Of a stretch of DNA of 64,000 bases, positions 1,790 to 2,702 are shown piece by piece (position 1 is the stretch's first letter; the number at the start of each line of letters is the position of its first letter). Position numbers and translations under genes: made by a program. This DNA is from a virus (taxonomy: Duplodnaviria > Caudoviricetes). The stretch lies in the IMG/VR virus record IMGVR_UViG_3300005934_000002, positions 1-64,000 of that record. One strand, 5' to 3'. The notes beneath the pieces are model-generated. The model did not search any database and was not told where the DNA came from. It was given only the letters and a program-made list of their open reading frames with translations.

Positions 1790-1809
1790 AGATGTGCTAA
1801 AGCACATCT
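1790..1809. terminator. Perfect hairpin AGATGTGC-TAAA-GCACATCT; possible bidirectional terminator or RNA 3' end
   Basis: 8-bp perfect inverted repeat between convergent units, followed by TGTTTT on the plus strand. Confidence 0.55.
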
Positions 1810-2263
1810 TGTTTTCGCTATCGCTCAAACACTTATTTTCTTTTTAATTAAGAACAATAATTGCGAAGCAATTTAGCATCATGTAGATAGTTGAGCCACA
1901 ATTCGCCCGTTGCCGGACGAATTAAAAGTTTGGCTTCACATCATGTGAGTTAGCATCGCCATTCTGTTTAAGAAGATTTGTAACATATAGAGTGCATTAA
2001 ACGTGTTAATGTATTCTATATAATACATCGGAGGCGGCAGACCGTCAACCCCCTACTTCAGCATTCGCAATATCCGCGGAAGGCAGTTGATCCCAAACAG
2101 TCGAAATCACTTACCCGTGTGTTGTACCTTTTTCACAGAGCACACATCTTTTATGCCTGTAGTTAGCATTATCCTTGTAACACACCAGTATCTGAATATG
2201 GTCTCTCACATATCCTCAAGGTGAGTCGAGCATCCCCGACCAAACAGCGTTACTATGTTTTGC
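1790..2263 (-). ncRNA. Candidate ~470-nt structured non-coding RNA of unknown family, downstream of the GIY-YIG gene
   Basis: No ORF of 60 aa or more. About 43% GC by hand count over 1861-2250, visibly above the flanks. Multiple stems: a 10-bp stem with GCAA tetraloop (1900-1923), GUCGGG/CUCGAC (2225-2240), GGAUAUG/CAUAUUC, GGGGG/CCUCC enclosing CGG-UCUG-CCG, UCACA/UGUGA (1936-1948) and AAUUGC/GCAAUU (1859-1873). G-U pairs and the GNRA loop mostly favour the minus strand. Confidence 0.65.
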
Positions 2264-2689
2264 CTATTTTATTTTTTTTAACGCTTCTTTCAAGACTTTC
2301 GAACTTCCAACACGCACATTAATAATGCCGTTATAGTATTCATCAGTTTCTAAGACACGTCTATCGAATTGTTCTTTGGCTTCAAGATAACTTAATACGC
2401 CTTTGCTTTCACAGTAGTGTAAAATTTCCCTTGTAAATTTTTCTTGGCCTAATTTTTGTACATCTTCAAGTAAATGATCGGAACTACCCCAATAGTCTTT
2501 CCAGTCAGATTCTACTTTTTCTCTTCTTTTGTTTTTTCTGCCTTTTAAAGGTGGGCGAGTTTTTTTGAATTTTGCGAGTTTCTTGCCTACGTACTTACGA
2601 TTGTTAGTTAAATTGGTTATTAAGTAGACAAAGCCTTCTATGCCTTCTGGGATTTCTGTTACTTGTTGTCCTTTGTAAGTCCATTGCAT
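2264..2689 (-). CDS. Small GIY-YIG family endonuclease (Seg-like), 141 aa from MQWTYKG
   Basis: Has the GFVYLITN...RKYVGKK (GIY-YIG) motif, DWKDYWGSS, and conserved E (YLEAKEQ) and N (YYNG). The start was moved to the ATG at 2689, which lies 5 nt downstream of a late-type promoter. Confidence 0.85.
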   Translation of the reverse strand: MQWTYKGQQVTEIPEGIEGFVYLITNLTNNRKYVGKKLAKFKKTRPPLKGRKNKRREKVESDWKDYWGSSDHLLEDVQKLGQEKFTREILHYCESKGVLSYLEAKEQFDRRVLETDEYYNGIINVRVGSSKVLKEALKKIK

Positions 2690-2694
2690 ATGGA

Positions 2695-2702
2695 TACTTA
2701 CC
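2695..2702 (-). promoter_or_regulatory. Late-type promoter variant (GGTAAGTA) for the GIY-YIG gene
   Basis: NTAAGTA variant 5 nt before the ATG, the same geometry as other late promoters in the window. Confidence 0.45.

What the first reader, a model, noticed from the sequence alone, without database searches (positions are those of the whole stretch)
1790..2702. Small GIY-YIG nuclease transcribed together with a ~470-nt structured RNA: candidate ribonucleoprotein system
Seen in sequence: a late-type promoter (2702-2695) lies 5 nt before a 141-aa GIY-YIG gene. Its stop codon is followed directly, on the same strand, by ~470 nt of ORF-free, stem-rich sequence ending in a perfect hairpin (1790-1809). 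The nuclease has a very basic insert (KKLAKFKKTRPPLKGRKNKRREK) and no C-terminal DNA-recognition domain. Established: T4 Seg and intron GIY-YIG homing endonucleases usually carry extra specificity domains, and small nucleases next to large structured RNAs (IscB/HEARO, TnpB) proved to be RNA-guided. Inference: the RNA could be a scaffold, guide or regulator for this catalytic-domain-only nuclease. I do not recognise this RNA as a described family.
Basis: partly seen in the sequence, partly recalled or inferred. Interest (0 to 1): 0.88.

Follow-up and report, generated by a model that had tools for sequence, protein, structure and literature searches.

The report
Knotted phage RNA beside nuclease gene
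The gene-free 480 bases behind a small nuclease gene of this uncultured marine giant T4-like phage encode a real, doubly knotted non-coding RNA of unknown function that is shared by hundreds of related phages, and the nuclease looks like a swappable neighbour, not a proven partner.

Summary
The core observation holds. A 141-aa SegE-type GIY-YIG gene (2264-2689, minus strand) is followed by 481 ORF-free bases (1783-2263) ending in the hairpin 1790-1809. The claimed late promoter at 2702-2695 is not one.

The ORF-free stretch is a genuine structured RNA. Homologous sequence follows the nuclease gene in 64 of 71 related IMG/VR loci. On 24 relatives, 99.2% of 1560 pair cells are paired (35-47% when slid). 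34 of 65 pairs change on both sides, including two pseudoknots. Frequent G-U pairs fix the minus strand as sense. No Rfam family matches, and ARAGORN finds no tRNA or tmRNA.

Two single-stranded 'twin boxes' (1949-1939, 1887-1877) change together by identity, which points to one shared reader.

The nuclease link is strong but not obligate:
- 79 of 87 RNAs chosen without regard to the nuclease have the GIY-YIG upstream, 3 have a PD-(D/E)XK nuclease, and 5 have no recognised nuclease.
- GIY-YIG orthologues occur without the RNA.
- RNA and nuclease alleles assort independently.
- No guide-like match exists in the phage record.

Best reading: an independent phage RNA gene with homing-type nucleases parked beside it, as with T4 SegB in the tRNA cluster. 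Function is unknown.

This scan has found the same family before on other DNA. The Polynucleobacter-1 (RF01718) link named there was not reproduced here.

The parts
2264..2689 (-). SegE-type GIY-YIG nuclease gene, 141 aa, catalytic domain only
   Evidence: Pfam PF19835 E 4e-36. PHROG 447 E 2e-38. AlphaFold model pLDDT 84.9 with I-TevI catalytic domain as the top, weak PDB match. GIY (GFVY), YIG (KYVG), and conserved Arg87, Glu103 and Asn120 are invariant in 23 orthologues.
1790..2265 (-). Structured non-coding RNA, about 475 nt, 'type A' member of a large phage RNA family. It runs from the AGGCA motif to the terminal hairpin.
   Evidence: Homologous in 195 of about 207 related loci. 99.2% of pair cells paired and 34 of 65 pairs with changes on both sides. 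No Rfam hit at E<=10.
2261..2265 (-). AGGCA motif at the 5' boundary of the conserved RNA. Here it overlaps the nuclease stop codon.
   Evidence: Present 15-20 nt before helix P1 in all 39 relatives shown, in varying reading frames, and kept next to the RNA when a 65-75-nt insert separates gene and RNA.
2177..2253 (-). 5' three-way junction: P1 (2253-2249 / 2181-2177), P2 hairpin (2241-2235 / 2230-2224), P3 (2223-2220 / 2186-2183) and P3a (2215-2209 / 2200-2194)
   Evidence: Helices 1-4: 15 of 23 pairs change on both sides, and 93.5-100% of cells are paired.
2117..2169 (-). Hairpins P4 (2169-2153, conserved loop) and P5 (2145-2117)
   Evidence: Compensating stem sequences are visible in the alignments. 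They were not counted because indels shift the register.
1964..2107 (-). Pseudoknot 1: the hairpin stem 2107-2103 / 2094-2090 has a loop, 2100-2095, that pairs with 1969-1964
   Evidence: Helices 5 and 6. 5 of the 6 loop pairs change on both sides, and 99.3% of cells are paired.
2037..2077 (-). Pseudoknot 2: 2077-2072 pairs with the loop (2042-2037) of hairpin P10 (2053-2048 / 2035-2030)
   Evidence: Helices 7 and 10. 4 of the 6 knot pairs change on both sides, and 100% of cells are paired.
1895..2062 (-). Core junction: P12 (2062-2060 / 1897-1895), P9 (2059-2056 / 1975-1972) and P13 hairpin (1922-1914 / 1909-1901)
   Evidence: Helices 8, 9 and 11. P12 also covaries between the RNA subtypes (GCUG/UGGC against GUCG/UGAC and GUCAG/CUGAC).
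1981..2027 (-). Lineage-specific inserted hairpin (P11)
   Evidence: Absent or short in most relatives. An RNA-library contig replaces 1979-2028 with 14 nt.
1939..1949 (-). Twin box 1 (CUCACAUGAUG), unpaired in the model
   Evidence: Near-invariant. Its six-letter core equals that of box 2 in 39 of 39 distinct RNAs not chosen by box, with three variants.
1877..1887 (-). Twin box 2 (UCUACAUGAUG), unpaired in the model
   Evidence: As for box 1.
1790..1873 (-). 3' tail: P15 hairpin (1873-1859), an AU-rich variable linker, P16 stem with a tandem G-A internal loop (1831-1810) and the terminal hairpin P17 (1809-1790)
   Evidence: The P16 and P17 hairpins, and P15 in most, are recovered by single-sequence folding in 8 of 11 diverse relatives with different stem sequences. 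The inner P16 pairs were counted. On the plus strand P17 scores as a terminator.
2266..2293 (-). Sigma-70-like promoter match (TTGAAA, 16 nt, TAAAAT) inside the 3' end of the nuclease gene, placed to start transcription at the RNA
   Evidence: 10 of 12 consensus positions match. It is present in close relatives only and is not conserved across the family. Promoter-like sites in the region are no more frequent than in shuffles.
2708..2914 (-). 68-aa ORF between gp46 and the nuclease gene, syntenic in most relatives
   Evidence: tblastn synteny. No Pfam or PHROG family.

Best explanation
Window 1790-2265 (minus strand) is the gene for a stable, independently folding non-coding RNA of about 475 nt. 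It has a 5' three-way junction, two pseudoknots, a central multi-helix junction and three 3' hairpins. This much is shown by covariation. Inferred: the RNA is made from the transcript that also carries the nuclease gene, or from a promoter embedded in that gene's 3' end, and is trimmed near the AGGCA motif and the terminal hairpin. It then acts in trans as a scaffold. It displays two identical single-stranded 7-8-nt boxes on either side of helix P13 to one reader, either a dimeric protein or a nucleic acid with a repeated site. The GIY-YIG gene in front of it is most likely a free-standing, homing-type nuclease gene. It uses the junction next to this highly conserved RNA gene as its landing place, and its breaks drive gene conversion of the RNA gene between co-infecting phages. 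This parallels T4 SegB, which sits in the tRNA gene cluster and favours its inheritance. The nuclease neither needs the RNA nor is needed by it. What the RNA does for the phage is not known.
For: Real RNA. Homologous sequence follows the nuclease gene in 64 of 71 non-redundant relatives. 99.2% of 1560 cells are paired against 35-47% in slid controls. 34 of 65 pairs change on both sides, and 0 of 500 shuffles reach the observed values. Many pairs are dominated by G-U or U-G, such as column pairs 35/52, 183/197, 231/413 and 243/256 of alignment A1. These would be A-C on the other strand, so the minus strand is the sense strand. Contigs from four RNA libraries of four studies cover 1872-2260 and the nuclease gene, two of them bridging 2186-2386 with no mismatch, and none covers 1364-1811.

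Shared reader. The twin-box cores are identical in 39 of 39 unbiased RNAs, with three variants (ACAUGA, AGAUGA, AGAUAA) that occur in different RNA subtypes.

Neighbour, not partner. Among 87 distinct RNAs chosen only by the twin boxes, 79 have the GIY-YIG upstream, 3 have a PD-(D/E)XK nuclease (PF24608, E 1e-22 to 1e-25) and 5 have no recognised nuclease. Seven IMG/VR loci and phage Melnitz have the GIY-YIG (75-78% identical) without the RNA. L085/L087 carry an RNA 99% identical to the window's beside a GIY-YIG only 67% identical. L005, L008 and L012 carry GIY-YIGs 82-84% identical beside another RNA subtype. In L085 the 99% tract starts at AGGCA and ends at P17, while the flanking genes are 40-67% identical.

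Precedent. T4 segB lies between tRNA genes, targets the tRNA region, and promoters of downstream genes sit inside seg genes (PMC2988022).
Against: The protein has no DNA-binding domain, which characterised Seg and I-Tev homing enzymes have, so how it would find a site is unexplained. The nuclease gene occupies 91% of sites and is more conserved (75-84%) than gp46 (53-72%) in many relatives. That also fits a useful, selected gene rather than a selfish one. No empty gp46-orf68-RNA site was found. The contigs from RNA libraries give no strand or ends and may include DNA. No reader of the boxes was identified. The embedded promoter is not conserved.
Confidence: 0.5

Rival explanations
1. The RNA and the nuclease form a ribonucleoprotein. 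The RNA supplies target recognition, as guide or scaffold, to a catalytic-domain-only GIY-YIG enzyme.
For: Same strand, directly adjacent, and 91% co-occurrence. RNA-library contigs bridge gene and RNA. The enzyme lacks a DNA-binding domain and has an invariant basic beta-hairpin that could bind nucleic acid. When the GIY-YIG is missing, another nuclease (PD-(D/E)XK) often takes its place.
Against: The RNA is found with an unrelated nuclease fold or with none. The nuclease is found without the RNA. Alleles assort independently. The variable segments are paired hairpins or AU-rich linkers. The longest match of the RNA to the rest of the 84.8-kb record is 13 nt, within the 12-16 nt seen in shuffles. 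No GIY-YIG enzyme is known to be RNA-guided (my own knowledge).
Confidence: 0.12
2. The RNA is a cis-acting part of the nuclease transcript. It would be a 3' UTR that stabilises, processes or limits expression of the upstream nuclease mRNA, or an antitoxin-like RNA that restrains it.
For: Co-orientation with no terminator between gene and RNA. Bridging contigs. T4 homing-endonuclease expression is known to be controlled by RNA structures and RNase E processing (PMC2988022).
Against: About 475 nt with two pseudoknots and invariant single-stranded boxes is far more than such control needs. The same RNA follows unrelated genes, including an aldolase-II-like gene and proteins of unknown function. 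In L147 it lies beside a nuclease gene on the opposite strand. Orthologous nucleases manage without it.
Confidence: 0.12
3. The RNA is a catalytic or mobile-element RNA. It could be a diverged intron-like or other ribozyme that travels with homing-nuclease genes.
For: Its size, its pseudoknots and its company of GIY-YIG and PD-(D/E)XK nuclease genes recall phage group I introns. The RNA segment behaves as a discrete exchange unit.
Against: No group I, group II or other ribozyme model matches at E<=10. There are no flanking exons. The upstream gene is complete, and in the window the downstream genes converge on the other strand.
Confidence: 0.08
4. The conserved stretch works as DNA, for example as a replication origin, a recombination hot spot or a packaging signal, with the twin boxes as direct-repeat protein sites.
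For: Direct repeats that change together by identity are typical of sites read by one DNA-binding protein. The region is a recombination boundary.
Against: Compensatory changes in 34 helix pairs, with many G-U pairs on one strand only, are the signature of a folded RNA transcribed from the minus strand. RNA libraries hold the region.
Confidence: 0.05

Closest known systems
Polynucleobacter-1 RNA motif (Rfam RF01718; Weinberg et al. 2010, PMC2864571)
   Same: An orphan structured RNA from freshwater and estuary metagenomes and Burkholderiales. Earlier agents of this scan report that it covers the first third of freshwater relatives of this RNA.
   Different: Not reproduced here. There was no RF01718 match in the window at E<=10. 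There was none in 16 loci at E<=5, in 37 further loci at gathering score, or in one freshwater locus at E<=10. If the link is real, the model does not reach this marine branch, and two thirds of the RNA are uncatalogued in any case.
GOLLD and ROOL (large ornate non-coding RNAs often carried by phages and prophages; Rfam)
   Same: Several hundred nucleotides long, richly structured, phage-borne, function unknown.
   Different: No sequence or structure match. Different architecture. This RNA sits next to nuclease genes after gp46, not next to tRNA genes. Whether it forms multimers, as those RNAs do in cryo-EM (my own knowledge), is untested.
T4 SegB, a free-standing GIY-YIG homing endonuclease inside the tRNA gene cluster (PMC2988022; Brok-Volchanskaya et al. 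2008)
   Same: A free-standing GIY-YIG gene wedged beside genes for structured RNAs in a T4-like phage. It promotes preferred inheritance of the neighbouring RNA genes. Promoters for downstream genes can lie inside seg genes.
   Different: SegB and other Seg enzymes carry a DNA-binding part. This 141-aa protein is a catalytic domain only. Cleavage and homing were not tested here. Occupancy is near-universal, not sporadic.
IscB/HEARO omega RNA and TnpB reRNA (OMEGA systems)
   Same: A small nuclease gene with a large structured RNA encoded next to it on the same strand.
   Different: Those nucleases are RuvC or HNH enzymes that always occur with their RNA, and the RNA ends in a variable guide. 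Here the nuclease is a GIY-YIG, the pairing is dispensable both ways, and no guide segment was found.
Phage-encoded tmRNA (for example phage Melnitz, 453 nt)
   Same: A pseudoknotted RNA of similar size in the nearest cultured relative, also a short way downstream of a PD-(D/E)XK nuclease gene.
   Different: The Melnitz RNA is recognised by Rfam and ARAGORN as a permuted tmRNA with a tag peptide. The window's RNA is recognised by neither, and the two show no similarity.

Membership tests
GIY-YIG nuclease superfamily, SegE-type (PF19835) | Profile match above the curated cut-off, with the GIY and YIG motifs and the conserved Arg, Glu and Asn | tested here: met
   124.4 bits against a cut-off of 25. 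GFVY, KYVG, Arg87, Glu103 and Asn120 are invariant in 23 orthologues. The I-TevI catalytic domain is the top structural match, though weak, with E 0.13-0.2.
Free-standing homing endonuclease (T4 Seg type) | Separate DNA-binding domain joined to the catalytic domain | tested here: not met
   141 aa, with the profile covering residues 3-123. Longer phage homing-endonuclease families (PHROGs 7363 and 314, 356-574 positions) match only the catalytic part.
Free-standing homing endonuclease (T4 Seg type) | Sporadic presence between conserved genes, other nuclease genes at the same site, and phylogeny incongruent with the flanks | tested here: inconclusive
   Replaced by PD-(D/E)XK at the same site in 3 loci. 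Found at another site, after nrdB, in Melnitz. Allele identities are incongruent with gp46 and with the RNA. However, 91% of sites are occupied and no empty site was found.
Free-standing homing endonuclease (T4 Seg type) | Site-specific cleavage of the nuclease-free allele and preferred inheritance in co-infection | not testable with these tools
   Needs purified enzyme or a phage cross. No cultured phage carries the locus.
RNA-guided nuclease system (OMEGA / CRISPR-like) | Obligate co-occurrence of nuclease and RNA | tested here: not met
   RNA without the GIY-YIG in 8 of 87 loci. GIY-YIG without the RNA in 7 loci and in Melnitz.
RNA-guided nuclease system (OMEGA / CRISPR-like) | Variable guide segment in a conserved scaffold that matches target DNA | tested here: not met
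   The variable parts are paired hairpins or AU-rich linkers. The longest match to the rest of the 84.8-kb record is 13 nt, and shuffles give 12-16 nt. Host DNA could not be tested because the host is unknown.
Any Rfam 15 family (including group I/II introns, tmRNA, RNase P, GOLLD, ROOL, HEARO, RF01718) | Covariance-model match | tested here: not met
   No match at E<=1 over 1-6000. Only a chance-level enod40 hit at E<=10 over 1760-2290. ARAGORN finds no tRNA or tmRNA.
Twin-box phage RNA family (uncatalogued; defined in this scan) | Profile homology, the two identical boxes flanking hairpin P13, helix P12 closing the core, and the P15-P17 tail | tested here: met
   The nhmmer profile matches 195 loci. 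Boxes, P12/P13 and the tail hairpins are present. The window belongs to the minority 'type A', 35 of 195 loci.

The most novel reading that the evidence does not exclude
The RNA is the working core of a new kind of phage ribonucleoprotein or RNA machine. Its two identical boxes would recruit a dimeric partner, possibly whichever nuclease is encoded in front of it, using the RNA as an interchangeable platform. Alternatively they would bind a repeated site on a host RNA, so that the RNA steers DNA cutting, recombination at the gp46/gp47 locus, or host translation. The near-constant presence of some nuclease gene directly upstream (82 of 87 loci) would then be functional, not parasitic.
Probability: 0.15. 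Interest if true: 0.9.

Novelty: new variant of a known kind. Interest (0 to 1): 0.62.

Why it matters
RNAs above 400 nt with several pseudoknots are rare outside ribosomes, RNase P, tmRNA and self-splicing introns, and each newly found class (GOLLD, ROOL, OLE, raiA, HEARO) has opened a line of research. This one is abundant in uncultured giant T4-like phages of seawater, estuaries and salt marshes. It is absent from Rfam and from 50,697 GenBank phage records. It carries an unusual signature: two boxes that evolve in lock-step. Its fixed place next to interchangeable nuclease genes makes it a natural test case. One reading is that homing nucleases target RNA genes to drive gene conversion between phages. 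The other is that a catalytic-domain-only GIY-YIG enzyme borrows an RNA for specificity. Both questions can be tested directly with the cloned 1-kb locus.

Tried and rejected
- **Rfam.** cmscan on the window and on 54 related loci found nothing relevant, and in particular no RF01718.
- **tRNA and tmRNA.** ARAGORN found no tRNA or tmRNA. The tmRNA idea, raised by the annotated tmRNA of phage Melnitz, was rejected.
- **GenBank phages.** blastn of the window's RNA and of a type B RNA against 50,697 phage records gave no match. No isolate is available.
- **PA5oct.** This phage, a near isolate by gp46 at 47% identity, has no nuclease or RNA after gp46.
- **Bacterial genomes.** The twin-box scan of genome contigs gave 22 pattern hits. 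Only 4 are the RNA, and all are on contigs of MAGs that are probably phage DNA.
- **Pseudogene or protein remnant.** Rejected. Relatives share no ORF in the region, and the variation is compensatory in helices, not codon-like.
- **Group I intron.** Rejected. There is no model match and there are no exons.
- **Pairing of GUAGG with UCUAC of box 2** (suggested). Rejected. GCAGG/CCUGC variants keep the nested helix while box 2 stays unchanged.
- **Boxes pairing with each other.** Rejected. The C-to-G variants would break the pairing.
- **Alternative pairing of GCGAAU (A1 columns 223-228) with the 5' strand of P13**. Left open. It may reflect only sequence repetition.
- **Alignments.** Global MAFFT alignments of all subtypes were too noisy for covariation scans. 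Alignment A2 (491 columns) exceeded the limit for building a covariance model, so no model was built.
- **RNA-library contigs.** The parts without cover (1364-1811 and most of gp46) prove nothing on their own.
- **Sequence search of solved structures with the nuclease.** No hit.
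Full report
**Setting.** The window is the first 64 kb of an 84.8-kb IMG/VR virus record. On the minus strand lie gp47 (4684-5688), gp46 (2911-4680), a 68-aa ORF (2708-2914) and a 141-aa ORF (2264-2689). After these come 481 bases without an ORF above 45 aa (1783-2263). Two small plus-strand ORFs (1402-1782) converge on that gap. 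The gp46 protein is at most 47% identical to any GenBank phage. The best matches are jumbo phages such as Sinorhizobium phage Phosso and Pseudomonas phage PA5oct. This is therefore an uncultured, distant T4-like lineage.

**Checking the observation.** The 141-aa protein is a SegE-type GIY-YIG domain (PF19835, E 4e-36, residues 3-123) and a member of PHROG 447, whose profile has 148 positions.
- The basic stretch is invariant in 23 orthologues and is modelled as a confident beta-hairpin.
- The best PDB matches of the model are the I-TevI catalytic domain, and they are weak.
- There is no room for a DNA-binding domain.
- The hairpin 1790-1809 is real. The consensus scan rates it as a terminator only on the plus strand, where a T-run follows it.
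- The 'late promoter' at 2702-2695 reads GGTAAGTA, and TATAAATA occurs once in the whole window, elsewhere.
- The gap folds better than shuffles on both strands, more so on the minus strand (z -4.8 against -3.55).

**Is it conserved?** A protein-based scan of IMG/VR returned 80 loci with orthologues of the nuclease.
- Nearly all keep the order gp47, gp46, orf68, nuclease.
- The DNA just after the nuclease stop is homologous to the window's gap in 64 of 71 non-redundant cases.
- No ORF is shared there.
- Three scans with a twin-box pattern, which ignores the nuclease, added 120 IMG/VR loci, 120 metagenome loci and 4 contigs in MAGs.
- A nucleotide profile matches 195 of the roughly 207 IMG/VR loci.
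- No GenBank phage has the sequence.

**Is it an RNA?** I aligned 24 full-length RNAs of the window's own subtype (alignment A1), found helices by a covariation scan and counted them with the dedicated tool.
- For 65 pairs in 13 helices, 99.2% of 1560 cells form standard pairs. The figure is 35-47% when the 3' partners are slid by 1-3 columns and 87% in column shuffles.
- 34 pairs change on both sides, and 0 of 500 shuffles reach the observed score.
- Two helices cross the others. The loop of hairpin 2107-2090 pairs with 1969-1964, and 5 of these 6 pairs are compensated. Segment 2077-2072 pairs with the loop of hairpin 2053-2030, and 4 of these 6 pairs are compensated.
- Many pairs are mostly G-U or U-G. 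Only the minus-strand transcript can form them, so the RNA has the polarity of the nuclease gene.
- The P16 and P17 tail hairpins, and P15 in most, are recovered by folding single sequences in 8 of 11 diverse relatives, although the stem sequences differ.
- Rfam 15 gives nothing at E<=10, and ARAGORN finds nothing.

**Special features.**
- Two near-invariant, unpaired boxes flank hairpin P13: CUCACAUGAUG at 1949-1939 and UCUACAUGAUG at 1887-1877.
- In the 39 distinct RNAs that were not chosen by box sequence, the six-letter cores of the two boxes are always the same. The variants are ACAUGA, AGAUGA and AGAUAA, and they turn up in different RNA subtypes.
- This is co-variation by identity, not by complementarity. 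It argues that one reader sees both boxes, and it excludes box-to-box pairing.
- An AGGCA motif marks the 5' boundary in all relatives, whatever the reading frame of the nuclease stop.
- The family has at least three subtypes that differ in the middle of the molecule. The window belongs to the minority type A, 35 of 195 loci.

**Expression.**
- Contigs from four metatranscriptome libraries of four studies cover 1872-2260 and the nuclease gene.
- Two contigs bridge 2186-2386 without a mismatch.
- One contig carries the RNA without the lineage-specific hairpin 1979-2028.
- None covers 1364-1811.
- Contigs give neither strand nor ends, and RNA libraries can hold DNA, so this is only a hint.
- A sigma-70-like promoter lies inside the last 30 bases of the nuclease gene. 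It is not conserved across the family.

**Relation to the nuclease.** I classified the upstream gene for 87 distinct RNAs that were chosen only by the boxes and have at least 1 kb upstream.
- The upstream gene is the GIY-YIG in 79.
- It is a PD-(D/E)XK nuclease (PF24608) in 3, once on the other strand.
- In 5 it is something else: an aldolase-II-like gene, or proteins of unknown function that match no nuclease family.
- Conversely, seven IMG/VR loci with enough downstream sequence have the nuclease (75-78% identical) but not the RNA. So does phage Melnitz, where the orthologue (76%) follows nrdB.
- Alleles assort independently. L085/L087 have an RNA 99% identical to the window's, running from AGGCA to the terminal hairpin, next to a nuclease only 67% identical and to neighbours 40-64% identical. 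L003 has 91% identical gp46 and nuclease but a less similar RNA, 81-88% by method. L005, L008 and L012 have the next most similar nucleases (82-84%) with other RNA subtypes.
- The RNA has no segment that matches the rest of the phage record beyond chance.

**Interpretation.** These results fit an independent RNA gene that is a discrete unit of genetic exchange, with homing-type nuclease genes parked at its 5' side.
- The precedent is T4 segB, which sits between tRNA genes and favours their inheritance. A second precedent is promoters embedded in seg genes (PMC2988022).
- Nuclease genes are also reported at boundaries of exchange between phages (PMC10448857, title and abstract only).
- Weak points: the enzyme lacks a DNA-binding domain, occupancy is near-universal and conservation is high, no empty site was found, and no reader of the boxes was identified.
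- The ribonucleoprotein reading is therefore not excluded. I give it about 0.12-0.15.

**Earlier work of this scan.** The same family was reported many times on other DNA, with the same conclusions: a real, knotted RNA with twin boxes, and a nuclease that is a neighbour. I reached these conclusions again from this window's own data. Those reports name Polynucleobacter-1 (RF01718) as the first third of freshwater relatives. I could not reproduce any RF01718 match in the window or in 54 related loci. For this marine branch the link remains untested and is not shown.

**Verdict.** The RNA-guided-nuclease interpretation is not supported, and the function remains open.

Noticed in passing
L231 4485-4947 (Methylophilales phage Melnitz MZ577097, 45984-46446): The nearest cultured relative by nuclease sequence lacks this RNA. 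It carries a bona fide permuted alpha-type tmRNA (tag ANDNYVPVDYALAA), followed at once by a glutamine riboswitch aptamer (RF01739, 52.8 bits). Both lie two small ORFs after a PD-(D/E)XK nuclease gene.
   Followed up: partly
L043, L045, L050, L052, L068, L069, L024, L133, L142, L062: about 10-20 nt after the terminal hairpin: A further conserved hairpin motif (..AAUGCAGUUCCGGAUCGCGUCCGUAACG..) follows the RNA in many relatives but is absent from the window. Its meaning is unknown.
   Followed up: no
window, whole (single hit at 47232-47239): The T4 late-promoter octamer TATAAATA occurs once in 64 kb, against about 12 expected from shuffles. This phage's late promoters probably use another consensus.
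   Followed up: no
L017, L022, L030, L061 (between nuclease stop and RNA): A 65-75-nt insert separates the nuclease stop from the RNA. The AGGCA motif stays next to the RNA, and L061 has two copies of it.
   Followed up: no
window 1979-2028: The inserted hairpin P11 is polymorphic in nature. A metatranscriptome contig that is otherwise identical replaces it with 14 nt.
   Followed up: partly
L228, L230 (Neomarinimicrobiota MAG) and L209, L225 (Crocinitomicaceae MAG): The only 'bacterial genome' copies of the RNA lie on MAG contigs of 24-335 kb. These are probably mis-binned phage contigs, but they could hint at hosts.
   Followed up: no
L058, L059, L078: Here the GIY-YIG orthologues (75-78% identical) sit in a different context, with gp46 downstream on the opposite strand and no RNA. 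The nuclease gene has moved.
   Followed up: partly
L305 6495-7420; L287 399-477: A contig with a twin-box pattern match (not checked to be this RNA) also holds a cluster of eight tRNA genes. Another such contig holds a freshwater-2 RNA (RF02980).
   Followed up: no
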